A stretch of DNA of 48,725 nt from a virus (lineage: Duplodnaviria; Caudoviricetes), in the IMG/VR virus record IMGVR_UViG_3300011335_000092, positions 1-48,725 of that record; one strand, 5' to 3'. The position numbers were made by a program, and so were the translations under genes. The notes beneath the pieces are model-generated. The model was given only the letters and a program-made list of their open reading frames with translations. It was not told the DNA's origin and did not search any database. Below, piece by piece: positions 5,522 through 37,841 of this stretch. The stretch's first letter is position 1; each line of letters opens with the position of its first letter.

Positions 5522-5708
5522 TGAGCCTAACTGGATATTGCCATTGGACTTCCTAGAAGTAGGAGAGAGTTTCTTTATACCGACCGTTAAGCCTAGCGAG
5601 TTAGTTTACTCAATAGACTGTGCATCTAAACGTGTCGGTATAAAGACTAGGACTTACATAGTGGCAAAGGATGGCATACTAGGTGTTAGAGCCTGGCGTA
5701 TACGTTAA
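5514..5708 (+). CDS. Small hypothetical protein, 64 aa
   Basis: Overlaps the primase stop (coupled); LEVGESFFIP..GVRAWR pattern typical of small phage proteins. Confidence 0.7.
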   Translation: MISEPNWILPLDFLEVGESFFIPTVKPSELVYSIDCASKRVGIKTRTYIVAKDGILGVRAWRIR

Positions 5709-8700
5709 TCTAAGTTAGCATCCCTACGAGTTTTTAAGTCTGGTTTAAGAATCTTATACTGATTAATTAAGCCTTTTTTCAATAAACGTTGTTCGTAGGC
5801 ATTATCTTTTAGTAAATCATCTCTAACTTTTTTAGTATTTTCCTTATCATTACGAATATCGTTAGCTTCTTCTCTTAAGTCTTTTAGTTCTCCGTTTACA
5901 TCAGCATTGTATCTCTCTATTAAATCAAATGCTTCTGGGTGGTCAACCATATACTCATATTCTTTAGATAATTTCTCTTTACCAGTCATAGCTTTCTTGA
6001 TATTTTTAATTTCAGCTTCTACTCTAATAAATTCTCTAGCTTCATAATCTGGTAATTTACCTATAAAACTACCCGCCACAATACTATCTGCTTTAGCATC
6101 AAATTCTTTTTCATCAGTAGAAAGCATCGAAATACTATCCACAGTATTAGCAAATTGAGTAACACCATTAACATAGCTAGATAATAAGAAAGATATTGTA
6201 TTAGGGTTTAAGTCTACCTCCCCGTCAGATATATCAAACAAATGGACTGCAAAATCATTGAGCCATTCTGGTGTAGAACCGCGTCCTTTAAATGCATCTG
6301 GGGTATTAGATAAATCACTATCATCGTAAATTTTACGACCTAAACCGTTCATGTTCATTAAATATTCAATAAAAGGTCTACCAACTGTCGGTGTAAAAGT
6401 ATCTAGAATCGCTTTACCTGGATGTTCTTGGAATGAAATACGGCTCACAGGAAGAGGTACATATGAGTCCAACCCAACCTGCGTACAGTTACTTAAAAAC
6501 TCTCCGTAAGTCTGGTTACCATTTACTAGAATACCTAATTGAGCGCCCCACGCTGTTAATGCACCTAGGCCAAAACCCCAAGGCAATTGAAATACTTTAT
6601 TATTATCATTTCCAGGTAACGTAAAACGCATAGCACGAGTCCATAATGCTGCATCATCTTTAGCTACTTTATTATCATTTAACTCATCATCGTCTGCGCC
6701 CATAAACATCATAGAGTATGAAGCAAAACCAAGACCTATTAATACCATAGATAGCACGCGGGCTCTAGTAGCTTTTATTTCATAATTCTTTTTAAACTCT
6801 GCCACTATCTGCGGGTTAGCCCTTTCAGCAGCTGATAAATCCTTCATAGCTACTTCTACTGGAAGTATATAACTTAAAGAGTCGATAGCACGCACTGCAC
6901 CTGTAGCCTGTGCCCTTGAGAACATAAACAATGTACCCATTTCTTTACCTCGCGTACCAGACTGTTCAAAGTTAGCTAAGTTTTTAACCTCATAAGCTGC
7001 TTTAGCCGCTATTTCTTTTGGTGTCATACTAGGATTTTGACGTTTAATAGCTTCTTTTATTGGCTCCATTGCACCAATTTTTGAGGTAAGTTCAAACATG
7101 TTAAACCAGTATTGGAATGCTGATACTACACCATCTCTAGTTTTTGCTACATTACCTTTACCTATCTCATCAGCTAATTTAATAACTTCACTCTTATTAG
7201 CTACACCTTGTAAGTATGTAACAATAGCGCCATTCTCTACCATCTCATAGAATGTTTTATAGAATGGGTTACCAGATTGAGCTAATTGTTTAAGTTTAGT
7301 AATATTATTTGCTTGATAAAGACGCATTGCTTTACCGCAGCTAAACATACCCCCGCCAACTAAAGTATCTAGTGTAGACATTTTTATTGAGTTGCCAAGA
7401 CTCTTAGCCATAGCAATGGCACCATACTCTACGTTAATATTTAAAATGTTTGTAGCTAAGTCACGTGCAAAGTTCCAAGGAGCAAATGCTACGTTAAATA
7501 ACGTAAATCCTTGCCCTACATATCGAGTAGCGCCACCAAAAAAGTTCCATGTAGCTTCTTCTAGGTCGCCCCTAACTTTATATGGAACACGAAGTGACTC
7601 TAATATCGGCCTTTCTTTAATAGTATAAATATCAATAGTGCCATCTGGTCTATAATGAAATAATGTATTTTGTTTAGCAAGTTCTTCTTTTGTTAAATCA
7701 TTTTCTCTATTTTCAAATTTAATTGATTTATAAGGTTTTTTATCTTTTGTAGTAGTTGCAATATGACCTTGACGAATATTATTAGCTACTGATTCCGCTA
7801 CTTCATTAGATACGACCGCAAATCCAGACTTTTTAGCATCAACAATAATTTGAACTAACGCGTTAGCTGCTTTAGAACGACGACCAGACATACCCCTTGT
7901 AGCTTCATGATAACGTTTACTTAATGGGTCTGTATCGTTGTAGAAAAGATTATCTGATTTTTCCATAGCCATTTGAGGCATACCTTTAAAAGGTACATAG
8001 TGCTCAAACCCATAGAAATCTACATAGTTAGTAGCATACGGAGACCAATAGTTAGCTTGTTTATATAGCTCTTTAGTACCCTCTTCAATATCTTGGAGCG
8101 TTTTAAAAGCTTCTTTAATTTTAGCTAAGTTAGTGTCAGCGTTCATTACTCCTCTTATCCTATCAACTTCAATAGGTTGCATTTCATTTACTGGAGAATA
8201 CTCTTGGTCATTTTCATCTAATAGATTTGGTTTATTAGCATAGTACACGCTATCTACCATAGACATATTTAAAGTGCCTTTACGGTCTTTACCTAAGACA
8301 GCATTCAAATCACCTGTGTCGGTAAATACCATAGCATCTAATACAGAACGTAAATACTTAGCTTGAGCCTTTGTAAGAACCCTAGTATTTAAAGCATCAA
8401 ATATATATTGTTTGATGTCAGAAGGAGTACCCTGTAAGTTACCTATCTTAATAGTAATATCGTCACGTAATTTTAAGTTTTTAATAAATAATAAACGGCG
8501 ACGTTCTGGTTCATGCATTGCTTTTAAGTAAGCATCTAATGTACCCATTGTTTCAGCAAAAGATTTACCAGTAATATTTTTAAGTTCTTTTACCTGCTCA
8601 ATTAATTTAGTGTGGTATTTACCCATTTTTTCATTGAACAATACATCAGCTCTAGCAAACATAGTAGATTGTAGTTCATAAGTATTATTAAATTCAGTAT

Positions 8701-11700
8701 TACCTTGAGCATCACGTAATGATTGGTTTCTTATAGATTGATTTTTTAAATCTGTTTTACGTTGCAACATCTTAAGTGCCACTGACGCATTTTGAAACCT
8801 TTTTACTAAGTTTCTATAAGTTTGCCTTGGGCTAGTTATTGTGCTCCAAACATTCTTTGCAAATTCTGCTTTTTCAGGAAGGTCATCTTCAACTGTTTTA
8901 GTAGAGTCCTCTATCATTTCATCTGTAGTTCTTGGACGAGCAGGGGCTTTACGCCGAGGTTTAGCTGGTGCATATGATACTTTCTTACCACGGAACTCTT
9001 CTGATGGGGCCACATAACCATACTCTGGACTAATCATTTGTTGAATAGTACCAATAACATCTTGTAAGCTATACCCCATGTTGCGTTCTTCATACGGAGT
9101 ATCTACTAAATCTTTAGCAGTGTAGAACCTATTAAAACCAAGTAGTCTAGCTATTGAACGTGATAAGTCTGTAAGGAAACTAGGTCTAGCTTCCCGTTTT
9201 GTCTGAGCTTCTTCGCCAGTTTCTAAAGACTTAACTATACTTGAAGCACCTGCTATTGCAGAAACTGATGTCTCTTTGAATGGAAGTTCGGCAACCGCTT
9301 TTTGAAACTCCTTATTGCTCATAATCTCAGCAATAAATTCTTTTAGATTAGGTATATCAAACTTTTGCCCACGGTTATTTAATTCAGTTTTAATGCGTTT
9401 ATATTGGTTTCTTAACTGATTAAGAGCTTTCTTTTGTTCTGCAGATAGGAGTTTAGGGTTATCAACAAGATGGTCTAGTAAGTAATGAGTTACCTCATGG
9501 TTAATAATCTCGTCTAGAGTTTCCTGTCCATTATATGTTTCACTAATGGTGATAGTATTAGTTGCAGGGTCAAACTTAGCTGGTCTACCATTCTCAACCG
9601 CACCATATACAATCTTAACGTCGCCTTTAATTTGCTTAATAAGTTTTGCATAGTGGGCTGAAATAAGCATAGCCGTAGTATCATTTTTGGTATAGTCTTT
9701 ACCAGCGATGGTTTTAAGAACCTCAACAATATTTTTACCAGCTTTAATTGCTTCTTCAAGTGCAGCAGCTAGTCTATTTTGTGCTTCAATTGGTTCGTTC
9801 TTAATCTTTTCTTGCTCTATTTGTTGTTGAGCAAGTTCTTTTCTAGACTGTTTACGTCCAGCAATATGTTTACGTACCGCTGCTACGCGTTTGTTAAAAT
9901 CTTCTTCGTCTCTTAAACGTTCTTGTTCTGCTAATTGCTCTGGAGTACGAACTTTAGTAACACGAGTTTTAGTGTTTTCAGCACGGGTACGGTTAGCACG
10001 GAGTGTGTGGTCTTGATTGATAAAGTTCTTTTTTAAATTATCAAACTTGGCTTTTTGTTCTGGTGTTAAAGACTTAATAAAATCTTGACGTAATTCTATA
10101 TCAGCTTTTTTAGCTGGACTTTGTTGTGCTGCAGATTCTTCCTCGTCTATAAACCCTTTACTAAATTCATGGAACTCATCTGGTTTTTTAAGTGAGATAA
10201 CATCTGTTTTAGTTTTAACAGTTTTTTTAAATCCGCCAACTTCACGACGAGCCTGACTAAGAGTTAGACCCTGCACCACTAACTCCGCTACTTTAGCATC
10301 GTATTCTGCTTTACGAGATTCATTTGATTGTTTAGCTTCTGCCTCTAATGCTTTATCACGTTTAGCAATGTCAATTAAACTTAACTCATCTGTGGCATCT
10401 TCTGCTGCTGCGGTCGCAATTGCTTCGTCTACATCCTTTGGGGCACGCGCCGCGTCTTCACCTTTAGACAACAAGTATGGATGAAGAAACATTTGAGCGA
10501 GGGTTTTCTTATAGGCTGGAGTATTAGGGTCACTAATTATTTTTGACAAAACCTCCTGAGCTTTGGTATTGGCTGGTGTTTCTTGTTCAGCTTGTTTTTC
10601 CTCAACAATACCCGCTTTTTCTTTAGCTTTTCTTACTTTTGCCTTTTTCATAGCAGGTTCAGTTGTTTCTGTTGCATCTTCTAAAAGCTCTTGTGCCTTA
10701 GCTGCCTTTTTGCTTTTAGGTTCTTTCTTTTTAACTTCCTCAATTATATTTTGAGTATCTTCAAGGTCAGTTAAATGATTTTCATCCTGTTGGTCTTTTT
10801 GTTCTTGGTTTTTAGTAGATTGATTTTTATGCTCGGCTAGCAAGCGTTTAAAAATCTCTGGGTTGTTTTGTTGAAGTTGATTAGTGCCATCAAGGTCACC
10901 TTTGAAAATATGTTTCTTTACCCAGTTTTTTACATGGTTTACATCTTTAAACTCACTGCCAGACTCTTGCATCTTAGCAATTAGGTTTTGCTCTATTTCA
11001 TTTAATGGAGACTGTTCTCCCTGCGCTCCTGCATCAGTTGATGATATAGCAGCTCCAGCCCCATCCACTCCAGCTGTGTTAGTTGCTCCAGCTCCTTTGG
11101 CAGACTTTCCTCTTCTTGGTTTAACAACTTCAATGCTAGGCCCAATTGGTGCTCCGTCAGCTCCGACATTATCAGCTCCTTCTAAAAGTTTATTAAGATT
11201 ATCATCTTTAGATGTAACCCCAACTGTTTTGCCTGTTTCAGATTCATTTAATTCGTCTGCACTAAACGCGGATGATGTAGCTGCTGCTTGTTGAGTTCCA
11301 GGAGGCGTAGTTGGAGGTGTAGTTGGAGGCGGTGTAGTTTCATCAGTTTCAGATTTTGCTCTAGCCCCAGACACTGCGCCAACTGGTGCACCACCAAGTG
11401 CGCCTAATACAAAGTTAGCAAACGAGTCAGCACCAATTTCTTTTACAACGGCTTTATTAATACCTATGTCTGAAGCAATACCCTCAACAAATTCTTCTGT
11501 ACCTTCTTCTGTTGTACTAGCGGCTGTTCCTAAAGCAATTTTAGCTAAACGATTTTTAGCGTACTTATCAATTACTTTATCAAACCCACCAGTAATTAAC
11601 TTGCCAGTAACTTCACCACCAAATGCTGATACAGCGCCTTGTAATTGCCCTGCATACTCAGCAGCACGGTCTGATACAACTTTTCTAGCTTCTTCTGGAG

Positions 11701-12658
11701 AAACCCCATCTTCAATCATTTTTTTATAGTACGGGCTAGACTGCGCTAACGTAGCCTCATCCATATTAGCTACATATTCTTTTGCGGATTGGATACCTTC
11801 ACCAGCACCTTGCCCATAACCTACTGTACCAACTGCAGCGGATTGAGCACCAGGAGCAAGCTTCTTAGTAATAAGTGCCGTAGCAATGACAGGAATTAAT
11901 GAGCCTAATGCTTGAGTAGCATTTAATGAATAACCGTATAATGATGGGTCTTTACCAAAGGATAAATTTTTAGTACTACCCGTTTTGATTGCTTCTAAAA
12001 GATTACCAGATGGTTGACTAGCCTCCATAGCTTGTTTAGCTTCAGGAGTTACTGATTCGTTTAATTCTTTTTGTTTTTGTATACCATATTCAGCAGCTTC
12101 TTCTGTTCCTGGAATATGAGGTACGCTAGATATAGCCCTATCTAAAGCTATTTTTTGGTCTAAGTCTTTTTGGCGTTGTTCTTTAGTACCAACAACATTA
12201 CTTACAAAGTTTTCAGATACTCCAGCAGGTTTACCTTGTACTAAATTTTCCCCTGCCTGCAACGCTGTTTTTGCTAAAGCCCCAGTAAATCCTGGGCCTG
12301 ACATATTATTAGTCTGTAAAGCCTCTAACCCCATACGAGGTAGGTTACGCACACCAGCTTCTAATGCTCTAGGTAATCCAGCAACTGTATTTACAACAGG
12401 GCCAACTACACCAGAATTTAGATAGTCTAATGCCTTATCACCAAAACTAGATTTAACTTCTTCTTTTGGTTTAGGTTTTTCTTCTGTGGGTTTAGCTTTA
12501 GCTGATTCTTTATTAATTAAATGAGAAGTAATTTCATCTTCATTTACCCCAGCTTTACGTGCGCCATCTAAATTATAATTATGTTTTTTGGATAAATAAT
12601 CATTAATTTCAGCGTTACTAAGGCCAGCTTTACGTGCACCTTCAATATCATATGCCAT
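5705..12658 (-). CDS. Giant internal virion/ejection protein of large-polyvalent type with zincin-like metallopeptidase domain, 2317 aa
   Basis: Last gene of the structural operon (P22 gp16/T7 gp16 position); HExxH INHEVTHY at about 9485-9499 with downstream EFIAE; Ala/Gly hydrophobic N-terminal region; C-terminal LPD38-like helical region (QLPWGFGLG). Confidence 0.75.
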   Translation of the reverse strand: MAYDIEGARKAGLSNAEINDYLSKKHNYNLDGARKAGVNEDEITSHLINKESAKAKPTEEKPKPKEEVKSSFGDKALDYLNSGVVGPVVNTVAGLPRALEAGVRNLPRMGLEALQTNNMSGPGFTGALAKTALQAGENLVQGKPAGVSENFVSNVVGTKEQRQKDLDQKIALDRAISSVPHIPGTEEAAEYGIQKQKELNESVTPEAKQAMEASQPSGNLLEAIKTGSTKNLSFGKDPSLYGYSLNATQALGSLIPVIATALITKKLAPGAQSAAVGTVGYGQGAGEGIQSAKEYVANMDEATLAQSSPYYKKMIEDGVSPEEARKVVSDRAAEYAGQLQGAVSAFGGEVTGKLITGGFDKVIDKYAKNRLAKIALGTAASTTEEGTEEFVEGIASDIGINKAVVKEIGADSFANFVLGALGGAPVGAVSGARAKSETDETTPPPTTPPTTPPGTQQAAATSSAFSADELNESETGKTVGVTSKDDNLNKLLEGADNVGADGAPIGPSIEVVKPRRGKSAKGAGATNTAGVDGAGAAISSTDAGAQGEQSPLNEIEQNLIAKMQESGSEFKDVNHVKNWVKKHIFKGDLDGTNQLQQNNPEIFKRLLAEHKNQSTKNQEQKDQQDENHLTDLEDTQNIIEEVKKKEPKSKKAAKAQELLEDATETTEPAMKKAKVRKAKEKAGIVEEKQAEQETPANTKAQEVLSKIISDPNTPAYKKTLAQMFLHPYLLSKGEDAARAPKDVDEAIATAAAEDATDELSLIDIAKRDKALEAEAKQSNESRKAEYDAKVAELVVQGLTLSQARREVGGFKKTVKTKTDVISLKKPDEFHEFSKGFIDEEESAAQQSPAKKADIELRQDFIKSLTPEQKAKFDNLKKNFINQDHTLRANRTRAENTKTRVTKVRTPEQLAEQERLRDEEDFNKRVAAVRKHIAGRKQSRKELAQQQIEQEKIKNEPIEAQNRLAAALEEAIKAGKNIVEVLKTIAGKDYTKNDTTAMLISAHYAKLIKQIKGDVKIVYGAVENGRPAKFDPATNTITISETYNGQETLDEIINHEVTHYLLDHLVDNPKLLSAEQKKALNQLRNQYKRIKTELNNRGQKFDIPNLKEFIAEIMSNKEFQKAVAELPFKETSVSAIAGASSIVKSLETGEEAQTKREARPSFLTDLSRSIARLLGFNRFYTAKDLVDTPYEERNMGYSLQDVIGTIQQMISPEYGYVAPSEEFRGKKVSYAPAKPRRKAPARPRTTDEMIEDSTKTVEDDLPEKAEFAKNVWSTITSPRQTYRNLVKRFQNASVALKMLQRKTDLKNQSIRNQSLRDAQGNTEFNNTYELQSTMFARADVLFNEKMGKYHTKLIEQVKELKNITGKSFAETMGTLDAYLKAMHEPERRRLLFIKNLKLRDDITIKIGNLQGTPSDIKQYIFDALNTRVLTKAQAKYLRSVLDAMVFTDTGDLNAVLGKDRKGTLNMSMVDSVYYANKPNLLDENDQEYSPVNEMQPIEVDRIRGVMNADTNLAKIKEAFKTLQDIEEGTKELYKQANYWSPYATNYVDFYGFEHYVPFKGMPQMAMEKSDNLFYNDTDPLSKRYHEATRGMSGRRSKAANALVQIIVDAKKSGFAVVSNEVAESVANNIRQGHIATTTKDKKPYKSIKFENRENDLTKEELAKQNTLFHYRPDGTIDIYTIKERPILESLRVPYKVRGDLEEATWNFFGGATRYVGQGFTLFNVAFAPWNFARDLATNILNINVEYGAIAMAKSLGNSIKMSTLDTLVGGGMFSCGKAMRLYQANNITKLKQLAQSGNPFYKTFYEMVENGAIVTYLQGVANKSEVIKLADEIGKGNVAKTRDGVVSAFQYWFNMFELTSKIGAMEPIKEAIKRQNPSMTPKEIAAKAAYEVKNLANFEQSGTRGKEMGTLFMFSRAQATGAVRAIDSLSYILPVEVAMKDLSAAERANPQIVAEFKKNYEIKATRARVLSMVLIGLGFASYSMMFMGADDDELNDNKVAKDDAALWTRAMRFTLPGNDNNKVFQLPWGFGLGALTAWGAQLGILVNGNQTYGEFLSNCTQVGLDSYVPLPVSRISFQEHPGKAILDTFTPTVGRPFIEYLMNMNGLGRKIYDDSDLSNTPDAFKGRGSTPEWLNDFAVHLFDISDGEVDLNPNTISFLLSSYVNGVTQFANTVDSISMLSTDEKEFDAKADSIVAGSFIGKLPDYEAREFIRVEAEIKNIKKAMTGKEKLSKEYEYMVDHPEAFDLIERYNADVNGELKDLREEANDIRNDKENTKKVRDDLLKDNAYEQRLLKKGLINQYKILKPDLKTRRDANLD

Positions 12659-27282: not shown

Positions 27283-28202
27283 TATAGACCTTTATATTCC
27301 AAGCTAGTTTGACCCTTACGGTATGCATCATTGCGTTCAAGACCATCACCAAGACGTTTAAGCTGCATTAATGATTCTTGAAACATCTTTTCATAGTAAC
27401 TAACCATGTCAGCCTCACCCTTCATAAAGATGACTGCTTCACGCATAGCGCCATAAAACAGCACTGGGTCATAGTTATCACCAAGCCATGAAGTACCTGT
27501 TGAGTTAAGAACCGAACCTACCAATACAGAAAAACCTGTACCTACTCCACCAATACTTGATGCTGCTGCAGATAATGTATTGCCTACAATATAAAGTGAA
27601 CCTGGACTATTAATCGTTACTGAAGATACGCCATTTTGTGACACAACTACTGTAGCTGTTGCAGATGTACCTGACCCGCCTGTTAAAGGCACGTTATAAT
27701 AAGTACCGTTCGTATAGTTAATACCTGGAGTAATTGCCCCAAACGCAGAGATTCTTCCCTGTACAATAGAAATTGGGTAGTAGAAATAGTGTAGTTCTGT
27801 TGTGTAATACTGGTCTGGAGTTGGTGCCATAATAGCTGACAGCTCTTCTAGATTACCTGTAGTTGGCCCGAACACTGCGTAGTATTTAGGTGTACCTGTA
27901 GAAGTTGGGTTTGGGTATGACTCACGAAGAAAGTTTACATCTTTATTTAATAGGTAGTTGTATTTACCTGTGCTATCAATAACAGCAATAGAATATGTTG
28001 CTAACCAATCATCAGGAAGCGAAAGATATGGGTTGTTAATAGTTAGCGTACCTGTCACGTTTTTACGAAGTGATGGCAACTGAACTGTATTATATATACG
28101 TCTCTCGGCTTCTTGCACAAACGTAGGAATGTTCGCTACGAATAGCGACTCCGTGTTTTCAGAGTAATCCTGAATTGCTTGTGATAGCTGGATATAGTTC
28201 AT
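27282..28202 (-). CDS. Head-tail adaptor-like protein with an inserted Gly/Ser/Thr domain, 306 aa
   Basis: FVQEAERRI..GTPKYYA..APTPD..ELHYFY..SWLGDN..LFYGAM pattern. Confidence 0.65.
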   Translation of the reverse strand: MNYIQLSQAIQDYSENTESLFVANIPTFVQEAERRIYNTVQLPSLRKNVTGTLTINNPYLSLPDDWLATYSIAVIDSTGKYNYLLNKDVNFLRESYPNPTSTGTPKYYAVFGPTTGNLEELSAIMAPTPDQYYTTELHYFYYPISIVQGRISAFGAITPGINYTNGTYYNVPLTGGSGTSATATVVVSQNGVSSVTINSPGSLYIVGNTLSAAASSIGGVGTGFSVLVGSVLNSTGTSWLGDNYDPVLFYGAMREAVIFMKGEADMVSYYEKMFQESLMQLKRLGDGLERNDAYRKGQTSLEYKGL

Positions 28203-28546
28203 TAGCCCATTTTTCCACTAATCTTACGACCTTTAGTTGCAGCGCCGTAGCCACGCATCTCACCAACGCCATATGGATTCATCACTTCTTTTTTACCACT
28301 GATGTTTACATCCATAGCAAGAGTTGAAGGGCTTACATCTTTAGCTGCACGGGCGTTTGGATTAACACTAGCCTTGATGTCTGAACTATAAGTGTTGTTC
28401 ATTGGTTGCTTGTAAACACCAATATCATTACCGCCACCTGATGGATATTTAAAGTCAGTATATGCACTAGCATCTTTGTTTTCTTTAGCATGACCTAACG
28501 GATATGCGTCAGCTGGTGTTGTTTTTACAAAATCATTCTTTGCCAT
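28202..28546 (-). CDS. Small low-complexity virion-module protein, 114 aa
   Basis: In operon; ends in MRGYGAATKGRKISGKMG motif. Confidence 0.7.
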   Translation of the reverse strand: MAKNDFVKTTPADAYPLGHAKENKDASAYTDFKYPSGGGNDIGVYKQPMNNTYSSDIKASVNPNARAAKDVSPSTLAMDVNISGKKEVMNPYGVGEMRGYGAATKGRKISGKMG

Positions 28547-28550
28547 GATA

Positions 28551-28727
28551 TTATCCTTGGTTTGCTACACGAGCTAGGTTACGACCTACTGACTTCATTG
28601 AGTCAGATGAAACGCCTTTTGAACCTTTGCCTGATTGAACGCCAACTTTTTTACCGTCGTCGCCTAAATTCTTACCTTTTGTCTTACCTGATTTTGTGAT
28701 GCCATCAGCACCTGATTTAAAAGCCAT
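28551..28727 (-). CDS. Small Lys/Gly-rich protein, 58 aa (not in ORF track)
   Basis: Hand translation: MAFKSGADGITKSGKTKGKNLGDDGKKVGVQSGKGSKGVSSDSMKSVGRNLARVANQG*; SD TAGGAG; fills the gap in the operon. Confidence 0.85.
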   Translation of the reverse strand: MAFKSGADGITKSGKTKGKNLGDDGKKVGVQSGKGSKGVSSDSMKSVGRNLARVANQG

Positions 28728-28743
28728 TTTAATACTCCTAGAA

Positions 28744-29133
28744 TTAAGTTGTTGTTATCGTTACTATACCTACTTGACCAATTCCAATCAAGTCATTTGG
28801 TGTTAATACTGTATCAAACCCACTTGCCCCACCAACAGGTGCCCAGCCCCACTGAAACTGACGACTACCATCTTGTGCATACCCATCTTTTCCTAAGCCT
28901 GACACCGCATAACTGGTATCTGGTCGGGGTTCTCTAACCCCTTGTGGGTCATTAACTGGGTAAAGCCCTAGTTGTAGTTGCGGTTGGTCAGGTTCCCAGC
29001 ATTCAAAACAAACTTTAATACTGACTTGCTTAGTCTTAATCGTAAGCTTTCTAAGCTCTGATAACTTGTATCTTTGTCCACATCTATCGCACTCGGCAAT
29101 ACTGTGCTTACCACTAGCGTACTTGGTTGGCAT
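28744..29133 (-). CDS. Zn-finger-containing conserved phage protein, 129 aa
   Basis: CDRCG..VCFECW, QPQL..PRPD motifs. Confidence 0.75.
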   Translation of the reverse strand: MPTKYASGKHSIAECDRCGQRYKLSELRKLTIKTKQVSIKVCFECWEPDQPQLQLGLYPVNDPQGVREPRPDTSYAVSGLGKDGYAQDGSRQFQWGWAPVGGASGFDTVLTPNDLIGIGQVGIVTITTT

Positions 29134-29645
29134 TATATAGCTACCTTATACTTATTATTTTTTCTATGGTTATCCGTAGCTGAGATAACTTGCATATTAG
29201 CTGGGACGTGTAATCCACTAACTAACTTACCCTGAAGGGGGATAATATGGTCCACGTGCCATTTAAATCCGTGCATTTTTGTTCTCTTAGCCGCTAAATC
29301 ATATATCTCATTAATAATCCATAAGTCATCATCAGTCAACCATGATGGTGTTCTATCTAATTTAGATGCCTTACGTTTTGCGGAGGCTTTATTTATAATA
29401 TGAGGGTTATTCTTACCATACTCTTTAGCATAGACTGCGCGTTTTTCTTTAATCCGCAAGTAATACTTTTGTTTTTGTTCCGTTATTTTTTCACAATTTT
29501 TTTCGTTATATTCTTTAGCTTGTTGCTTAAGTTTTTCTTTATTAGCTACCTTCCATGCTTTAATACGTGCAGATTCACTAGCTTTGTTATCAAGCCAATA
29601 TTGATGTGCATACTCTTTTTGCTTATTTTTATCTTTAAATGCCAT
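29133..29645 (-). CDS. HNH homing endonuclease
   Basis: Lys-rich helical repeats then WHVDHIIPLQG..GLHVPANMQVISATDNHRKNN. Confidence 0.85.
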   Translation of the reverse strand: MAFKDKNKQKEYAHQYWLDNKASESARIKAWKVANKEKLKQQAKEYNEKNCEKITEQKQKYYLRIKEKRAVYAKEYGKNNPHIINKASAKRKASKLDRTPSWLTDDDLWIINEIYDLAAKRTKMHGFKWHVDHIIPLQGKLVSGLHVPANMQVISATDNHRKNNKYKVAI

Positions 29646-29646
29646 A

Positions 29647-30369
29647 TTATCTAGTATATGAAAAATTCCTTGGCACGAAACGAATACTCGCTTTCTCGCG
29701 GTCTTCCTCTGCAGCTAGTTGGAACTGTTGTTCGTAGTCTGCTTTAAGTGCCATTGAACGGTTAGGGTCTACACCTGGAAGCTTTAAGCTCAAGTAATAA
29801 GCTAACCCCGCAACCATGCAGGGAAGAAAACGGCATGGAATATCCTGAGTATTAACAACATCGCCAGCCTCCTGTAGTCTACGTAAGCTCCAATAAACAA
29901 AAATATATTGCCCGTCAGGAGCATTAGGTGTAGGCCAGACGTTGATTTGAGGGTTCTTAATTCCACTTGGTGTTGTAGCTCCCGACTGCCGATTAATCCA
30001 TACTTGGATTGGTTTACCTTGTGTTAACTTGTTTGGGATAGTTGAATAGGTAGACTCTGAGATACGGTTAATATTAATATCGGTTTGTTGTATCGTGCCT
30101 GGCTGTGTTCTAATTACGTGGTCTAGTAAGTCAATCGTATCAATAGGCAGGTCGTATATCCCCACCCCTGTAGTAAGCGTAATCTGACCTTGCTCAATCG
30201 TCCACAAGTTAATGCCACGGTTAGCCCATTCTATCGTTAATAAGTTTAAACTACGACGCGCTGTACGGAAGTCATACCCTGTACGTAGCTCTGAACCACA
30301 ACGCTCAAAAGCCTCTTCAACAAGGTCATTTAAATCTAAGTTAAACGCTGTAGTAGCTGTAGTTGTCAT
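29647..30369 (-). CDS. Head-to-tail adaptor / tail tubular protein A-like, 240 aa
   Basis: EEAFERCG..ARRSLNLL..EWANRGINLW..VWPTP..GLAYYL pattern and position. Confidence 0.7.
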   Translation of the reverse strand: MTTTATTAFNLDLNDLVEEAFERCGSELRTGYDFRTARRSLNLLTIEWANRGINLWTIEQGQITLTTGVGIYDLPIDTIDLLDHVIRTQPGTIQQTDININRISESTYSTIPNKLTQGKPIQVWINRQSGATTPSGIKNPQINVWPTPNAPDGQYIFVYWSLRRLQEAGDVVNTQDIPCRFLPCMVAGLAYYLSLKLPGVDPNRSMALKADYEQQFQLAAEEDREKASIRFVPRNFSYTR

Positions 30370-30497
30370 TTATTTTCCCACTCAAACATAATTTGCACAA
30401 TGAATAAATCTATAATTAAAAAGTTGCTATCTTCATATTCGGCTAGTTCAATACCAACCATCATGCCTGTGATAAAACTAACGTAGCAACCAATCAT
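30366..30497 (-). CDS. Small hydrophobic protein, 43 aa (not in ORF track)
   Basis: Hand translation: MIGCYVSFITGMMVGIELAEYEDSNFLIIDLFIVQIMFEWENK*; starts 1 nt after the upstream stop and ends in an ATGA overlap. Confidence 0.7.
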   Translation of the reverse strand: MIGCYVSFITGMMVGIELAEYEDSNFLIIDLFIVQIMFEWENK

Positions 30498-30498
30498 T

Positions 30499-30750
30499 TT
30501 ACTTCACCTTTCTAAAGGGCTTAACCTTGCTTTTAATCTTGTCTGGCTGGGCTACAAACTGTTTACCTGCTGCCTTACCTGCACGTTTTGCTTTGGTTGT
30601 TGCTGCATACTCTGCTGGGCTAAGTGCTTTAATCGCCTTTTCAGGTAGGTATCGTTCACCAGTGTCAGATGATTTTTTACCTGACTTAGTTGTCCACTTC
30701 TGGTCACCCCAAGCTTTTAACGACTTTTGGCTTTTAGCTAACGCACTCAT
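30499..30750 (-). CDS. Basic protein resembling the C-half of the DUF5872-like family, 83 aa
   Basis: SQKSLKAW.DQKW.TKSG..ERYLP..KQFV motif (family name from memory). Confidence 0.65.
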   Translation of the reverse strand: MSALAKSQKSLKAWGDQKWTTKSGKKSSDTGERYLPEKAIKALSPAEYAATTKAKRAGKAAGKQFVAQPDKIKSKVKPFRKVK

Positions 30751-31082
30751 TTATACCCACCACCCGCAGCTTTATATCTTTTAGCAACTAACTGTGCTTT
30801 TCTGGCTGACCACTGACCTGCACCTGTACCTTGTGTTGCTTCTGACTTTACAGCTGATACGATACGTTTTCTAAGTTCAGGCTTTGTGTAATTACCAGCA
30901 GCGTTTACATTGCCACCTTCAGCATACTTCTTGCCTTTAGGAGCTTGCTTTGCACTAGGTAATTTTACCTTACCACCTTTTTTATATACTTCTACATCTT
31001 GTGGCTTGTCCTTACGAACAATCTTTTTGCCACTAGGCATCTTAGAAGGATTAATATCACCCATGCCACGAGAGGCTCTCAT
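30747..31082 (-). CDS. Basic protein with GG motifs, resembling the N-half of the DUF5872-like family, 111 aa
   Basis: YTKPELRKRI..GQWSARKAQLVAKRYKAAGGGY motif. Confidence 0.65.
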   Translation of the reverse strand: MRASRGMGDINPSKMPSGKKIVRKDKPQDVEVYKKGGKVKLPSAKQAPKGKKYAEGGNVNAAGNYTKPELRKRIVSAVKSEATQGTGAGQWSARKAQLVAKRYKAAGGGYK

Positions 31083-31279
31083 TACATCATCTTCCCGCGA
31101 GTCTTACCGCGAATAGCGCACCCATCTGCACGTGATGAAGCTGAACCGCCTTTTTTAAATGGACGTGGTTTAAGTGGTTTACCATCTGGGCCTGTTGGAG
31201 GGCCATCATCTTCTGCTTCAGGTGGGAGTGGAGGAGCAGATTTTTTCTTTTTCTTTTCTAACATGTCATCATTAATCAT
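31082..31279 (-). CDS. Small Lys/Pro-rich protein, 65 aa
   Basis: Coupled in operon; ends FKKGGSASSRADGCAIRGKTRGKMM. Confidence 0.75.
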   Translation of the reverse strand: MINDDMLEKKKKKSAPPLPPEAEDDGPPTGPDGKPLKPRPFKKGGSASSRADGCAIRGKTRGKMM

Positions 31280-31740
31280 ACAAACCTTCCTTTAGTTTTA
31301 CCGCGTTGAGCACAACCATCACCACGACTAGATGCTGAACCGCCACCAGCCATTTTCTTAACCTTACCACCACGTTTCATACCGTCAGAGTCAGCGTCAT
31401 AACCACCTTTGTTAACTTGGCCCATATTAGCACCCATCTCGCCTGAAGCTGAACCCATATCACCAGAAATACCATCAGCAGTATAATAATCACCACTAGT
31501 ATCTTTAAGTTTTTTTACAGTTGGTTTAGCTTTTGGTTTTGGTTTATTTACTTTACCCATATCTGGACCAACTTTAGAACCATCGCTGTTATCTACGCGT
31601 GAAGCCCTACGTGGTACGTCAAAGTTTGGACCAATTTTATCTGATGGACTTAAACGACTTGTAGTATCAGATTTAGGTTTATCTTTAGGTTTATCTTTAG
31701 TTGCTTGACTTGTTATAACGTCAATATCTTTTTTAGCCAT
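31276..31740 (-). CDS. Disordered Lys-rich protein, 154 aa
   Basis: Ends MKRGGKVKKMAGGGSASSRGDGCAQRGKTKGRFV. Confidence 0.75.
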   Translation of the reverse strand: MAKKDIDVITSQATKDKPKDKPKSDTTSRLSPSDKIGPNFDVPRRASRVDNSDGSKVGPDMGKVNKPKPKAKPTVKKLKDTSGDYYTADGISGDMGSASGEMGANMGQVNKGGYDADSDGMKRGGKVKKMAGGGSASSRGDGCAQRGKTKGRFV

Positions 31741-31742
31741 GA

Positions 31743-32123
31743 TTACACCATTTTTCCTTTAGTTTTACCGCGGACTTCAATGCCGCCGCCTTTAGCCATT
31801 TTTTTAGCTTTACCACCACTGCACATTTTCTTAGCCATACCGCCTTTTTTTAGCTTAGATAAATCTGTCTTTTCGCCTTTATGTTCTTGCTTGTCGTGCA
31901 TTCCAAAAGCTTTTTTAATCATTGCTTTGTCTTGCGCTTTGTCCATCTTTGTATCTTCTTTCATGTCTGACTTAGCCATACCGCCTCCTTTAAATTTTTT
32001 ACCTTTATCAGCGGCAGAGAATTCTTGGCCTACTGACTGTTTGATACCGACCTTCTTTGCAAACCCTGGATTATGTGCAATTGCTTCCATAAAGTTATGT
32101 TGCTTTTTAGATGTACTAGGCAT
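31743..32123 (-). CDS. Lys/Gly/Met-rich protein, 126 aa
   Basis: MPSTSKKQHNFM N-terminus; three 9-aa xxxGGxAKK repeats; ends RGKTKGKMV. Confidence 0.75.
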   Translation of the reverse strand: MPSTSKKQHNFMEAIAHNPGFAKKVGIKQSVGQEFSAADKGKKFKGGGMAKSDMKEDTKMDKAQDKAMIKKAFGMHDKQEHKGEKTDLSKLKKGGMAKKMCSGGKAKKMAKGGGIEVRGKTKGKMV

Positions 32124-32328
32124 TTTTCTTGCCCCATTTCTTAATTAAATTCTGCACTGTCTTTGTTTCGTAAATGCGGATTAGGGTCCACACGACTGAT
32201 AACGCTGCTGCTATTGATGGTAGTATTTGTAACAAGGAACCAAAGGCAACGCCGATTGAAGTCCAGTCAATTACGCTTTTAGTATGCTCGTTGACCGCAT
32301 CCAGTTTTTCGAAGAGTTCTTTAAACAT
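32116..32328 (-). CDS. Small membrane protein (possible holin/antiholin), 70 aa
   Basis: About 30-aa hydrophobic stretch SIGVAFGSLLQILPSIAAALSVVWTLIRI followed by a basic tail. Confidence 0.6.
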   Translation of the reverse strand: MFKELFEKLDAVNEHTKSVIDWTSIGVAFGSLLQILPSIAAALSVVWTLIRIYETKTVQNLIKKWGKKNA

Positions 32329-32619
32329 TTAACATTTCCATCTTTTAAGTGAGGCTGCTTTACGAGTAGGTTTGCCGTTTTCATCTTTCATTGGGCCTGG
32401 CATCCCTGACATACGTGCGCAGAACGATTTTTTACGTGGACCACCTTCTGGTTGTGGAGCCTTTAAATGGCTACCTGTTGCTGCATTATATTTTGCTCTA
32501 CCTTTGGCTGTAAGTCCAGCACCTTTATCGGTAGCAAGTTTTTCACCTCGACCCACTGCAAGCGTAGGTCCGCCTTTTTTCATAGGCTTACATTCGCATT
32601 TTTTAGTTTCTTTAGCCAT
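32329..32619 (-). CDS. Basic protein, DUF6321-like, 96 aa
   Basis: GLTAKGRAKYN..RKKSFCARMSG..RWKC motif (family name from memory); start MAKETKK at 32619. Confidence 0.65.
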   Translation of the reverse strand: MAKETKKCECKPMKKGGPTLAVGRGEKLATDKGAGLTAKGRAKYNAATGSHLKAPQPEGGPRKKSFCARMSGMPGPMKDENGKPTRKAASLKRWKC

Positions 32620-32896
32620 TATGTTTATCCGCAAATACGTTAATGAATACGGTGTTGTCTTCTAGTGCTTCTATCTCGTGCCATTCGGTTTCTTTTAAGT
32701 TCACGGGCTGTGTGGTTTTGTCCATCACAAGCTCTTTGTTTTCTTTACGAATTATACATGAACCCGCTGTACAAAACGATGCATGAGCATAAATGTGGCT
32801 ATGCTTAGGTAGCCCCTCACCCTTGTTAACGTGGAATACGTTAATTCTCGCACCATCATAGGTAAACGAGTGGGCTGGTGGGACGTTCTTTATCAT
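32612..32896 (-). CDS. Cupin-fold protein, 94 aa
   Basis: GEGLPKHSHIYAH and WHEIEALED cupin metal-binding motifs. Confidence 0.8.
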   Translation of the reverse strand: MIKNVPPAHSFTYDGARINVFHVNKGEGLPKHSHIYAHASFCTAGSCIIRKENKELVMDKTTQPVNLKETEWHEIEALEDNTVFINVFADKHNG

Positions 32897-35662: not shown

Positions 35663-36139
35663 TTAGACTTGGCTAGGGTTAGCTGCGCCGTCAGAGTTAC
35701 GAACAGTGTACATAATTGTAATTGTTGCTGTACCAGTAGTTAGTGTAGAGCCTTTAGTTGCTGTGTAATTAATGATAGCATCTGTAGCACCTACGTTTAA
35801 CCAACCGCCTGGAGTAGTAGCATTAGCATTTAAGTTTACACCACCTACGCTTGTGATTGTACCTGTAGTTGTAAAGTCTGTACCACCAATATCAAATTTA
35901 ATTGTAGTAGCTGCACTGAATACAGTAGATGTAACGATAGTTAAATGATTAACCAAAGCGCCTGCTGGCAATACTAATGAAGTAGCACCTGTTAATGAGC
36001 CATTAATAACGTCAAATGTAATGCTTGCTGTTTGTGATACTACTGAAGCACCCATATTACGGATTGTGCCAGCTGTAGTTCCTGTGGTATTCTTAACTGT
36101 GCCCAATAACCATGGGCCTAAATGTGAAGCGAAAGCCAT
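35663..36139 (-). CDS. Capsid decoration/accessory protein, 158 aa
   Basis: Thr/Gly-rich beta protein (LPAGALV..G.ATITIMY); SD AAGGA. Confidence 0.6.
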   Translation of the reverse strand: MAFASHLGPWLLGTVKNTTGTTAGTIRNMGASVVSQTASITFDVINGSLTGATSLVLPAGALVNHLTIVTSTVFSAATTIKFDIGGTDFTTTGTITSVGGVNLNANATTPGGWLNVGATDAIINYTATKGSTLTTGTATITIMYTVRNSDGAANPSQV

Positions 36140-36146
36140 AATAGAT

Positions 36147-36220
36147 TCCTTTATGCAAAAGTTTTCTTACCATCTTTGCATCGTCTGCTGGGGCAGTTGG
36201 TAAGAATTTAAATCCCAGAT
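36147..36220 (-). ncRNA. Pseudoknotted structured RNA, candidate Mu-gpT-DE motif
   Basis: Three crossing stems: CUGGG/CCCAG, UUCUUACCA/UGGUAAGAA, AUGCAAAG/CUUUUGCAU around a CAGCAGACG core; lies downstream of a Mu-gpT-like capsid gene; family name from context and memory, not from a CM search. Confidence 0.6.
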
Positions 36221-36270: not shown

Positions 36271-36642
36271 ATGCCTTATAAAGACCCTGCTAAAAAGAAA
36301 GAAAAGCAAAAAGAATATGCGAAGAAATACTATGAAGCAAACAAAGATAAGATAATAGCCGCGTCAGGTAAGGCAAGAAAGTCCAAGAGAGCTGAATTTG
36401 CAGCTTTTAAGTCCCGTTTATCCTGCACACATTGTGGTGAAAACCATCCAGCAACACTAGATTTCCATCATGTAGTACCCAATCCAGCCAACAAAAAGAT
36501 TACAGAACTTCTACGTGCAGGGCGTTTTAACTTTGCAATGGAAGAAATTATGAATAAGTGTGTAGTGTTATGCAGTAATTGTCACCGCAAGCATCACTAT
36601 AATGAGGATAAATCGCGAAAAAGTGATATATTGACAAAATAA
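36271..36642 (+). CDS. HNH endonuclease, opposite strand to the late operon
   Basis: CTHCG..LDFHH..CVVLCSNCHRKHH; SD GGAG. Confidence 0.85.
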   Translation: MPYKDPAKKKEKQKEYAKKYYEANKDKIIAASGKARKSKRAEFAAFKSRLSCTHCGENHPATLDFHHVVPNPANKKITELLRAGRFNFAMEEIMNKCVVLCSNCHRKHHYNEDKSRKSDILTK

Positions 36643-36684
36643 AAAACCCCACAAGGTTGCGCTTCTTTGATAGGCGTGTGGGGT
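36641..36684 (-). terminator. Terminator for pqqA, between the convergent HNH and pqqA genes
   Basis: ACCCCACA/TGTGGGGT 8-bp stem followed by a U-tract on the minus strand. Confidence 0.55.
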
Positions 36685-36703: not shown

Positions 36704-36775
36704 TTATTTGTTCATAACGTAACAAGTTACTTCAAAGCCAAAACGCATTTCTGTAGCTGCTGGTTTTGTCCACAT
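36704..36775 (-). CDS. pqqA: Pyrroloquinoline quinone precursor peptide PqqA, 23 aa (not in ORF track)
   Basis: Hand translation: MWTKPAATEMRFGFEVTCYVMNK*; W..P and GFEVTxY with the ExxxY core; SD AGGAG 7 nt upstream. Confidence 0.95.
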   Translation of the reverse strand: MWTKPAATEMRFGFEVTCYVMNK

Positions 36776-36868
36776 GTTGTATCTCCTGGTTTACAAAATG
36801 TACGGAATGTACACTATGAGTATAGTTATACGCCTAAAATTAAACTAATCCATACGTAAAATCATGAA

Positions 36869-36929
36869 TTACCGAGCGGTAATAAATAAAGAAAAAGCCC
36901 ACCGAAGTGGGCTTAATGTTACCGAGCGG
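36869..36929. repeat. 11-bp direct repeat TTACCGAGCGG (36869-36879, 36919-36929) flanking the capsid-gene terminator
   Basis: Exact repeat at 50-bp spacing; the first copy extends to the dyad TTACC-GAGC-GGTAA. Confidence 0.75.
36892..36914 (-). terminator. Intrinsic terminator of the major capsid gene
   Basis: AAGCCCAC-TTCG-GTGGGCTT then U-tract; cUUCGg tetraloop. Confidence 0.9.
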
Positions 36930-36932
36930 GAA

Positions 36933-37841
36933 TTAAGCGCCTGGAGAACCGTACATACCTAGTGGGTCTGAGTAACCAAAGCTGTAACGTTCACGAGCTT
37001 TGTAACGTACGTTACCTGTGTCGAAGTCACCATCCATAGAATTTTGCAATGGTGTACGAACAAAGTGTTTCATACCGTTAGGAACATCAGTAGTCAAGAA
37101 CCAAGCGTTGCTGTCTGTCAAGAAGTGGTTAATTGTGTAACCTTCTGGAATAGAACCGTTGTTTTCAAGAGCGTTGATGTCGTTATCAGTTGTACCTACG
37201 CGAAGCTTAGTTTCCAACAAACGTGTTGCAACGAATTGCAATGCTGGTGGAACGATAAGTTTCTTAGGTTTAGCTGCAATCAATAGACCACGTTCATCAG
37301 TCCAAGCTGCGATTTGAATTACTGCATTTTCCAATGAAGTTTCGTTCAAGTCAGCTGCAACTGCTGGCGTGTTGCTGTTTGTACCGCCGTTTACAAGACC
37401 GTGTGATGTTGAAAACAATGAAACACCATCGCCACCAACTACAGCACCGTTGAAGCCGTTGTTCAATACTGCAGCAGCTTTAACTTGTTTTGTGTATGCC
37501 ATAGCACGAGCCAATGCTTTAGTATAACGAGCTGACAATGAGTCATACAAGTTATCTTCGATAGCTTCTTCAGTTAAGCTGAAGCCATAAGCGATTGTTT
37601 CGTGGTTGTAGCGAGCAGTCCATGCTTCTTGTGCATTGTCATAAGCGATGGCAGAACCTTCGTTTTTAACAGGTGCAGCTGAGAAGCCAGACAATTTTGT
37701 TTCTTCTTCGAAAGAACGTTCTGAAGTCTCTGTTTCGTAGATTTCTTGATGTTCTTCACCATAGCGAGCATATTCCAAACCGAACAAAGCGTTCAAGCCT
37801 GGGAGCAACTCTTTTAATAATTGTGCGCGTGAAATTGCCAT
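36933..37841 (-). CDS. Major capsid protein (HK97 fold, Mu gpT-like), 302 aa
   Basis: MAISRAQLLKELLPGLNALFG, ITEEA-like LTEEAIEDNLY, KLIVPPALQF, RERYSFG motifs; strong codon bias, SD GGAG, own terminator. Confidence 0.9.
   Translation of the reverse strand: MAISRAQLLKELLPGLNALFGLEYARYGEEHQEIYETETSERSFEEETKLSGFSAAPVKNEGSAIAYDNAQEAWTARYNHETIAYGFSLTEEAIEDNLYDSLSARYTKALARAMAYTKQVKAAAVLNNGFNGAVVGGDGVSLFSTSHGLVNGGTNSNTPAVAADLNETSLENAVIQIAAWTDERGLLIAAKPKKLIVPPALQFVATRLLETKLRVGTTDNDINALENNGSIPEGYTINHFLTDSNAWFLTTDVPNGMKHFVRTPLQNSMDGDFDTGNVRYKARERYSFGYSDPLGMYGSPGA

What the first reader, a model, noticed from the sequence alone, without database searches (positions are those of the whole stretch)
36704..36775. 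Phage-encoded PqqA: a 23-aa cofactor-precursor gene hidden beside the capsid gene
Seen: ORF MWTKPAATEMRFGFEVTCYVMNK with an AGGAG SD, an upstream TATAAC -10-like box (36825-36830) and its own terminator; it is below the ORF-track cutoff. Known: PqqA is the ribosomal peptide whose Glu and Tyr (ExxxY) are cross-linked by PqqE/PqqD and excised to make PQQ, the cofactor of MxaF/XoxF methanol dehydrogenases. It is consumed stoichiometrically. The sequence looks like Methylophilaceae PqqA as I remember it. No pqqB-E genes are in the window. Inference: the phage supplies the substrate peptide to the host pathway to raise methanol oxidation and energy supply during infection, an auxiliary gene that works as a substrate rather than an enzyme. 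Viral pqqA may already be reported from freshwater metagenomes; I cannot check that here.
Basis: partly seen in the sequence, partly recalled or inferred. Interest (0 to 1): 0.88.

Follow-up and report, generated by a model that had tools for sequence, protein, structure and literature searches.

The report
Phage PQQ-precursor gene with antitoxin-like tail
A freshwater phage carries an intact 23-codon copy of pqqA, a peptide that its likely methanol-eating host would turn into the cofactor PQQ, followed by a hairpin resembling an antitoxin RNA; the same overlooked gene sits in the cultured phages of these bacteria that I could check, so its role can be tested in the laboratory.

Summary
Confirmed. 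Window 36775-36704 (-) encodes a real PqqA, above the Pfam and TIGR cut-offs. It has its own ribosome-binding site and sits between the capsid and cement-like genes of an HTVC023P-like podophage; independent assemblies support the junction. Viral pqqA is already in print (Lake Baikal T4-like phage, 2020), and this scan noted it before on other DNA. It lies unannotated in all 9 Methylophilales phage records that my GenBank search returned, including P19250A, published as lacking it, and in an estimated 2,900 IMG/VR stretches. None of 80 sampled viral loci has pqqB-E nearby. Host genomes carry 3-5 copies, which fits a dose-limited substrate. Best reading (0.7): the phage supplies precursor to the host's PQQ enzymes to keep methanol oxidation running; nothing functional is shown. 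Two features seem new. The Cys before the reactive Tyr occurs in 23 viral contigs but in no clearly cellular copy of this PqqA type.

The parts
36704..36775 (-). pqqA, 23-aa PQQ precursor peptide; Glu15 and Tyr19 of the E-x-x-x-Y core intact; Cys at position 18 where host copies have Met
   Evidence: Cys codon identical in run X3 and X1 contigs
36783..36787 (-). Shine-Dalgarno AGGAG, 7 nt before the ATG
   Evidence: an SD-like word precedes 118 of 118 viral copies scored
36825..36830 (-). -10-like hexamer TATAAC (predicted promoter; no clear -35)
   Evidence: exact TATAAT upstream of 45 of 117 viral copies against 17.6 +/- 3.7 in shuffles; not called by the scanner
36640..36683 (-). 3' hairpin (36646-36683) with U-run: predicted terminator and abiF-family RNA motif, slightly diverged
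   Evidence: Rfam RF03085 35.0 bits, gathering score 37, E 2.2e-4; 45.5 bits in closest relative L001; fold
36895..36914 (-). intrinsic terminator of the capsid gene, upstream of pqqA
   Evidence: called; z -3.3
36271..36642 (+). free-standing HNH endonuclease gene, convergent with pqqA; its stop codon overlaps the U-run
   Evidence: PHROG 3106 E 8e-21; also in this slot in 6 relatives without pqqA
36933..37841 (-). major capsid protein (upstream flank), 64% identical to pelagiphage HTVC023P
35663..36139 (-). 158-aa gene (downstream flank), in the position of the gene annotated 'cement protein' in phage DSL-LC04; assignment by position only

Best explanation
The phage carries a real, stand-alone pqqA and likely uses it to feed extra precursor peptide to the PqqB-E enzymes of its predicted Methylophilaceae host, which would keep PQQ-dependent methanol dehydrogenase supplied during infection. 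Shown here: the gene, its family membership, its signals, its viral context and its spread. Inferred: (1) the host, from the peptide type alone; (2) transcription by host RNA polymerase from the -10 box and/or read-through from the capsid gene; (3) that the precursor is the dose-limiting part while the enzymes are reusable, which explains why phages take only pqqA; (4) that Cys18 is tolerated; (5) a gain in energy or burst size.
For: Family scores are above both cut-offs. The same peptide with Met18 is the second commonest host form, 32 of 133 matches, and 69 of the 80 listed host records are named Methylophilaceae or Methylophilales. Five of five host genomes carry 3-5 matches, including 3 in the 1.27-Mb Ca. 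Methylopumilus universalis, and only 15 of 80 host loci have pqqB-E within up to 6 kb. In an evolved PQQ over-producer, pqqA transcripts rose 3.5-4.3-fold while pqqB, C and D rose far less (PMC9851590, passages). The gene follows the host. It is in 9 of 9 Methylophilales/Methylophilaceae phage records returned (6 of 6 re-tested by HMM), from sipho-, podo- and T4-like lineages. It is absent from 4 of 4 cultured capsid relatives not assigned to Methylophilales hosts and 6 of 6 near-complete IMG/VR relatives, and none of the 96 other relatives of an MEP401 gene is among the hits. 0 of 80 viral loci have pqqB-E nearby. Among 110 distinct viral cores, pS is 0.56 and pN 0.21 on the 9 codons not fixed by the search pattern (uncorrected). 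Cys at this position is common in alphaproteobacterial pqqA, and 60 of 80 such loci have pqqB-E within 1.5 kb.
Against: There are no expression, PQQ or fitness data; four RNA runs gave no listed contig that ties this copy to its flanks. In Acetobacter, pqqAB over-expression raised PQQ only 29% against 8-fold for the whole operon, and a cited Gluconobacter study ranks pqqB above pqqA (PMC7936290, passages), so precursor alone may add little. Cys18 was found in 0 of 101 Methylophilaceae genomes and 0 of 133 host matches, so its processing by this host's PqqE is untested. The host assignment has no independent support; the endolysin search did not point to Methylophilaceae. Nine further methylophage names in NCBI taxonomy could not be tested.
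Confidence: 0.7

Rival explanations
1. The peptide is processed to PQQ, but the benefit is not methanol oxidation: extra PQQ would act as a redox buffer, or serve other quinoproteins, during replication.
For: Nothing in the window ties the gene to methanol dehydrogenase; no such gene appeared among the ORFs scanned. Antioxidant activity of PQQ is recalled knowledge, not from a call.
Against: The cultured carriers returned all infect methylotrophs, and the Baikal carrier also encodes methanol dehydrogenase (PMC7678222, section read).
Confidence: 0.1
2. In this lineage the selected element is the 3' abiF-like RNA, which would neutralise a host AbiF toxin as a free antitoxin mimic; pqqA supplies a strong small transcript to carry it.
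For: Rfam abiF match. No Abi_2 gene in the window. The same hairpin allele follows two tandem pqqA copies in an unrelated phage contig, L528, and its outer stem follows pqqA in L123. abiF-motif RNA neutralises AbiF in trans (PMC12373285, abstract and passages). One Methylophilaceae genome has Abi_2 with an upstream abiF RNA.
Against: The window copy is below the gathering score and differs in conserved loop bases; L528 and L123 gave no abiF hit. Only 1 of 38 other phage records tested has the motif, and 1 of 120 viral abiF-core loci has pqqA upstream. Abi_2 is in only 1 of 151 host-family genomes. The thousands of other viral pqqA copies do not need it.
Confidence: 0.08
3. The Cys18 peptide is a decoy: it would occupy PqqD/PqqE or be diverted to a thioether dead end, lowering PQQ synthesis and sparing SAM for the phage.
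For: Cys is the main residue other than Met/Leu at this position in viruses: 23 of the 27 copies whose codon lacks T in the middle (the others are 2 Thr and 2 Ala), and 0 Ile/Val. It is three base changes from ATG and was seen in no clearly cellular copy of this type.
Against: About 99% of viral copies keep Met or Leu (23 of an estimated 2,900), including the closest relative. Cys at this position sits in ordinary pqq operons of Alphaproteobacteria.
Confidence: 0.07
4. The gene is a neutral passenger: picked up from the host and spread by the neighbouring HNH endonuclease, or kept as an attachment site for integration into host pqqA.
For: HNH is adjacent in the window, L001, L025 and L173. The gene is patchy on the capsid tree (4 changes among 64 rows).
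Against: HNH also occurs in this slot without pqqA in 6 relatives. Synonymous change exceeds replacement change. No integrase was among the ORFs scanned from the window or among 126 large ORFs from 72 viral pqqA loci. Similarity to host DNA is confined to the coding codons.
Confidence: 0.04
5. The segment is host DNA mis-assembled into a phage contig.
For: pqqA is a multi-copy repeat in these metagenomes; summed contig depth piles up over it.
Against: Identical overlapping contigs join it to both flanks in run X3. The same order, capsid-pqqA-HNH, occurs in independent contigs L001 and L025 with diverged sequence.
Confidence: 0.01

Closest known systems
Viral PqqA of Lake Baikal population VP_266 (Coutinho et al. 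2020, PMC7678222; section 9 read)
   Same: Phage-encoded pqqA proposed as an auxiliary gene that boosts methanol oxidation in Methylophilaceae.
   Different: VP_266 is T4-like and also encodes methanol dehydrogenase. This is an HTVC023P-like podophage with pqqA alone in the 77% that is sequenced. That paper states P19250A has none of these genes, but P19250A does carry pqqA, unannotated.
Cellular PqqA of Methylophilaceae (PF08042 / TIGR02107), especially the dispersed orphan copies
   Same: 22 of 23 residues match a common host form; stand-alone gene with its own SD; up to 64 of 69 bases identical to host copies.
   Different: Cys instead of Met at position 18. Viral copies are often preceded by a consensus TATAAT (45 of 117) and host copies are not (0 of 120). 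The 3' hairpins differ from those after host copies.
abiF RNA motif (Rfam RF03085), antitoxin of AbiF/Abi_2 type III-like systems (PMC12373285, abstract and passages)
   Same: Short stem-loop with the conserved loop; full-length model match (1-37); doubles as a U-tailed hairpin.
   Different: 35 bits, just under the cut-off of 37; single copy; follows pqqA, with no Abi_2 gene in the record.
Cyanophage psbA (recalled, not from a call)
   Different: PsbA is a catalytic subunit; PqqA is a substrate consumed to make a cofactor.

Membership tests
PqqA (PF08042 / TIGR02107) | Score above the curated family cut-offs | tested here: met
   36.5 vs 21.1 bits; 35.2 vs 20 bits
PqqA (PF08042 / TIGR02107) | Short peptide with Glu and Tyr four residues apart near the C-terminus, preceded by a W-x-x-P leader | tested here: met
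   Glu15 and Tyr19, W2 and P5; spacing as Glu16/Tyr20 in PMC10906245 (passages)
PqqA (PF08042 / TIGR02107) | Encoded with, or in a cell that has, pqqB-E | tested here: inconclusive
   None in the window or in 80 viral loci. The predicted host family has them, and orphan copies are the norm there, but the host is inferred.
PqqA (PF08042 / TIGR02107) | Cross-linked by PqqE/PqqD and converted to PQQ | not testable with these tools
   Needs biochemistry; Cys18 is untested with Methylophilaceae enzymes
Phage auxiliary metabolic gene | Flanked by phage genes on a sound viral contig | tested here: met
   Between capsid and HNH/cement-like genes; junctions in X3; same order in L001 and L025
Phage auxiliary metabolic gene | Under purifying selection in phages | tested here: met
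   pS 0.56 vs pN 0.21 on codons not fixed by the pattern, 110 distinct cores; uncorrected, with pattern ascertainment
Phage auxiliary metabolic gene | Expressed during infection | tested here: inconclusive
   Four metatranscriptome assemblies hold capsid and pqqA-like pieces, but none listed joins this copy to its flanks
Phage auxiliary metabolic gene | Changes host metabolism or phage fitness | not testable with these tools
   No data
abiF RNA (RF03085) | Score at or above the gathering threshold (37 bits) | tested here: not met
   35.0 bits in the window; met by the orthologous hairpin of L001 at 45.5 bits
abiF RNA (RF03085) | Lies upstream of an Abi_2/AbiF toxin gene | tested here: not met
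   No Abi_2 in the record (77% complete); most viral matches also lack one directly downstream (2 of 38 scanned ORFs)
abiF RNA (RF03085) | Binds and neutralises AbiF protein | not testable with these tools
   Shown only for other systems (PMC12373285)

The most novel reading that the evidence does not exclude
One phage transcript of about 170 nt does two jobs: its 23 codons feed the host's PQQ pathway, and its terminator hairpin is a free abiF-family antitoxin mimic that disarms a host AbiF abortive-infection toxin. The cassette moves between unrelated phages of methylotrophs, and free abiF hairpins (about 220 viral stretches) would be a general RNA counter-defence.
Probability: 0.2. Interest if true: 0.8.

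Novelty: new variant of a known kind. Interest (0 to 1): 0.55.

Why it matters
Viral pqqA has been a line in metagenomic papers. Finding it unannotated in every cultured Methylophilales phage record returned, across unrelated lineages, makes it the likely hallmark gene of methylophages and testable by deletion in existing phage-host pairs. It would be an auxiliary gene that acts as a consumed substrate, not an enzyme. It may also serve as a 72-base host marker for thousands of unassigned viral contigs, and here it extends the HTVC023P-like group to a predicted methylotroph host. If the 3' hairpin is an antitoxin mimic, it adds an RNA-only counter-defence against AbiF, the Cas13-related toxin family.

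Tried and rejected
Expression: four RNA runs laid as contigs show capsid-gene pieces of related phages and pqqA-like pieces, but cannot show strand, level or which copy; no conclusion drawn. Host by a second marker: the endolysin matched scattered prophage-like and mis-binned contigs and unrelated phages; uninformative. Denominator of cultured methylophages: MEP431-434 did not appear among the top 60 of 789 hits of a Pelagivirus capsid search, and HIM624-A did not appear in two MEP401 searches. They are probably not in the collection and were not tested. The two Acinetobacter 'phage' hits are not counted as viral; the one inspected is a pqqABCDE operon beside ppk. Rfam at gathering level finds nothing in the window, and an E-value scan of 18 other pqqA loci found no family. 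Two attempts to score the leader RNA each had a helix out of register; only the correctly placed helices are cited. A loose -10 pattern was no more frequent than in shuffles (77 of 117 vs 76); only exact TATAAT was enriched. No peptide-protein complex was predicted: the peptide is too short and it is an enzyme-substrate pair.

Full report
OBSERVATION. It passes the curated cut-offs of Pfam PF08042 (36.5 vs 21.1 bits) and TIGR02107 (35.2 vs 20), and a PqqA-shaped ORF arose in 0 of 300 shuffles. AGGAG lies 7 nt upstream and TATAAC at 36825-36830. The consensus scanner called neither this promoter nor the downstream hairpin; it did call the capsid terminator at 36914-36895. The record is a linear virus contig, about 77% complete, with one PqqA match.

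SETTING. The window holds helicase and primase genes, a terminase, a portal, a capsid gene and tail genes, with no integrase among the ORFs scanned. The capsid protein is 64% identical to pelagiphage HTVC023P and 71% to MinM2. In the four cultured relatives I opened, the next gene starts about 100-155 nt after the capsid gene; in DSL-LC04 it is annotated as a cement protein. Here about 800 nt intervene and hold pqqA, a hairpin and an antisense HNH gene. Of 80 IMG/VR capsid relatives, 2 have pqqA in this slot (L001, L025; 61 of the 80 have at least 1 kb downstream). The pqqA scan added more contigs with the gene 51-1129 nt behind the same capsid gene. On a quick capsid tree of 64 rows the label needs 4 changes, at least 2 forced by well-supported branches; 4 of the 7 positive rows came from the pqqA scan. 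In run X3, identical overlapping contigs join the gene to both flanks, Cys codon included. The two best holders are river metagenomes.

SPREAD. tblastn of the peptide against 50,697 phage records gave 12 hits. Nine are Methylophilales/Methylophilaceae phages (P19250A, Venkman, MEP301, MEP401, MEP402, four Melnitz genomes), one is a spring metagenome phage, and two are Acinetobacter contigs, of which the one inspected is a bacterial pqq operon. In the seven records opened, the gene is unannotated or hidden under an antisense hypothetical ORF. The HMM confirms 6 of 6 methylophage records. It finds none in HTVC023P, CRP-901, DSL-LC04, MinM2, HTVC019P or 6 near-complete IMG/VR capsid relatives. 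Nine more methylophage names exist in NCBI taxonomy and were not tested, so 'every cultured methylophage' is not established. A pattern scan of IMG/VR stopped at 120 stretches and estimates about 2,900. None of the 80 loci with flanks has pqqB-E. Their large ORFs are phage replication, recombination, packaging and tail proteins of several lineages, with no integrase among 126 scanned from 72 loci.

HOST AND DOSE. The peptide type maps to Methylophilaceae (69 of 80 listed records). All 133 host matches have Met18. Five host genomes hold 3-5 matches each, even the 1.27-Mb Ca. Methylopumilus universalis, and most host copies are orphans (65 of 80 loci without pqqB-E nearby). Viral copies keep an SD (118 of 118), are enriched for exact TATAAT (45 of 117 vs 17.6 in shuffles; host 0 of 120), and show more synonymous than replacement change. 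Published dose data are mixed: pqqA transcripts rose most in an evolved over-producer (PMC9851590, passages), while pqqAB alone gave +29% in Acetobacter (PMC7936290, passages).

MECHANISM. The PqqA leader binds PqqD, and the C-terminal Glu and Tyr are presented to PqqE (PMC10906245, passages). One peptide yields one PQQ, whereas the enzymes turn over (established knowledge). I infer that a phage can therefore raise or sustain PQQ with 72 bases, using the host's enzymes, and so keep methanol dehydrogenase working. Each step after the gene itself is inferred; metatranscriptome contigs were inconclusive.

CYS18. A full scan found this residue in 23 viral stretches, in six groups by flanking DNA besides the window; 5 of the 23 are of the Methylophilaceae type. 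The only other residues with a non-T middle base were 2 Thr and 2 Ala, and Ile/Val were not found. The genome collection gave one match, on a phage-like contig, and 0 of 101 host-family genomes matched. Alphaproteobacterial pqqA often has Cys there inside pqq operons (60 of 80 loci), so tolerance is the simplest reading and a decoy role the alternative.

THE 3' HAIRPIN. abiF-motif RNA binds and neutralises AbiF toxin in cis and in trans (PMC12373285, abstract and passages). The window has no Abi_2 gene. The same allele follows tandem pqqA copies in an unrelated contig, L528, though there and in L123 the model did not score. One of 151 host-family genomes has Abi_2, with its own abiF RNA upstream. 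Against a general role: 1 of 38 other phage records has the motif, and 1 of 120 viral abiF-core loci follows pqqA. I therefore do not file the hairpin as an abiF member, but keep 'works like a free antitoxin' as the novel case.

LITERATURE. Viral pqqA is reported for Baikal population VP_266, with the same interpretation (PMC7678222; passages and section 9 read), and listed among viral genes in reservoir sediments (PMC13188868, passages). The Baikal paper says P19250A encodes none of these genes, which contradict. Word searches of the main texts on Venkman, MEP301, MEP401/402 and Melnitz found no pqqA (PMC8163748, PMC8024684, PMC10580990, PMC9004378), nor did PMC9564219, PMC13059738, PMC12361551 or PMC13037479. 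PMC11118758 mentions PqqA only as a cellular peptide family (passage). I read no supplements and did not see the original P19250A paper; either could mention the gene. The claim that the breadth in cultured phages, the Cys allele and a free abiF hairpin are not in print rests on the searches (listings; one search showed 40 of 60), in a library that lacks most subscription papers. This scan has noted phage pqqA on at least seven other genomes, seen after my own; none of the notes returned mentions the Cys allele or abiF.

VERDICT. A real phage pqqA of a kind already described, in a new lineage, with two features not found in print by my searches. Best mechanism 0.7; interest 0.55; dual-function case 0.2 probability and 0.8 interest if true.

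Noticed in passing
window 36153-36218 (-); also L014, L015, L025, L033, L036, L038, L046, L056, L062, L071, L072, L076: A conserved, apparently double-pseudoknotted RNA leader directly before the SD of the cement-like gene. A strict core motif is in 13 of 70 capsid loci. The CUGGG/CCCAG helix is 100% paired with one compensatory change, and a second helix is 90% paired with 3 compensatory pairs. Possibly a translational control element for capsid-to-cement ratio (inference).
   Followed up: partly
L123 3315-3520; L126, L152, L182, L198, L098, L161, L105, L201: The 3' ends of viral pqqA copies carry several short hairpin modules shared between different phages and not seen after host copies (2-6 of 149 viral vs 0 of 126 host sequences each); L123 stacks three of them. 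No Rfam match.
   Followed up: partly
L529-L648 (IMG/VR): Free abiF-like hairpins are frequent in viral contigs (about 220 stretches estimated). Only 2 of 38 scanned downstream ORFs are Abi_2 (38 of the 50 ORFs found among the first 80 loci).
   Followed up: partly
L330-L352, L474: A second viral PqqA class with D-[IL]-R-[LIF]-G-F-E-V-T-C-Y (18 of the 23 Cys contigs) has no clearly cellular match in the genome collection; the one hit is a phage-like contig in a Luteolibacter bin. Its host is unknown.
   Followed up: partly
L528 1258-1540: An unrelated phage contig carries two tandem pqqA copies beside a terminase-like ORF (my reading, not scanned), followed by the same hairpin allele as the window.
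   Followed up: partly
window 36869-36879 and 36919-36929: An 11-bp direct repeat flanks the capsid terminator and occurs nowhere else in the window; possibly an insertion scar or an operator.
   Followed up: no
window 29133-29645 (-): A second endonuclease gene (PHROG endonuclease VII match) interrupts the structural operon.
   Followed up: no
window 28202-32634 (-): A run of small Lys-rich ORFs, several ending in similar K-G-G / R-G-K motifs, typical-looking for this phage group; function unknown.
   Followed up: no
window 5705-12658 (-): A 2317-aa protein with an LPD38 domain and a weak partial PHROG 'virion RNA polymerase' match; probably an ejection protein.
   Followed up: no
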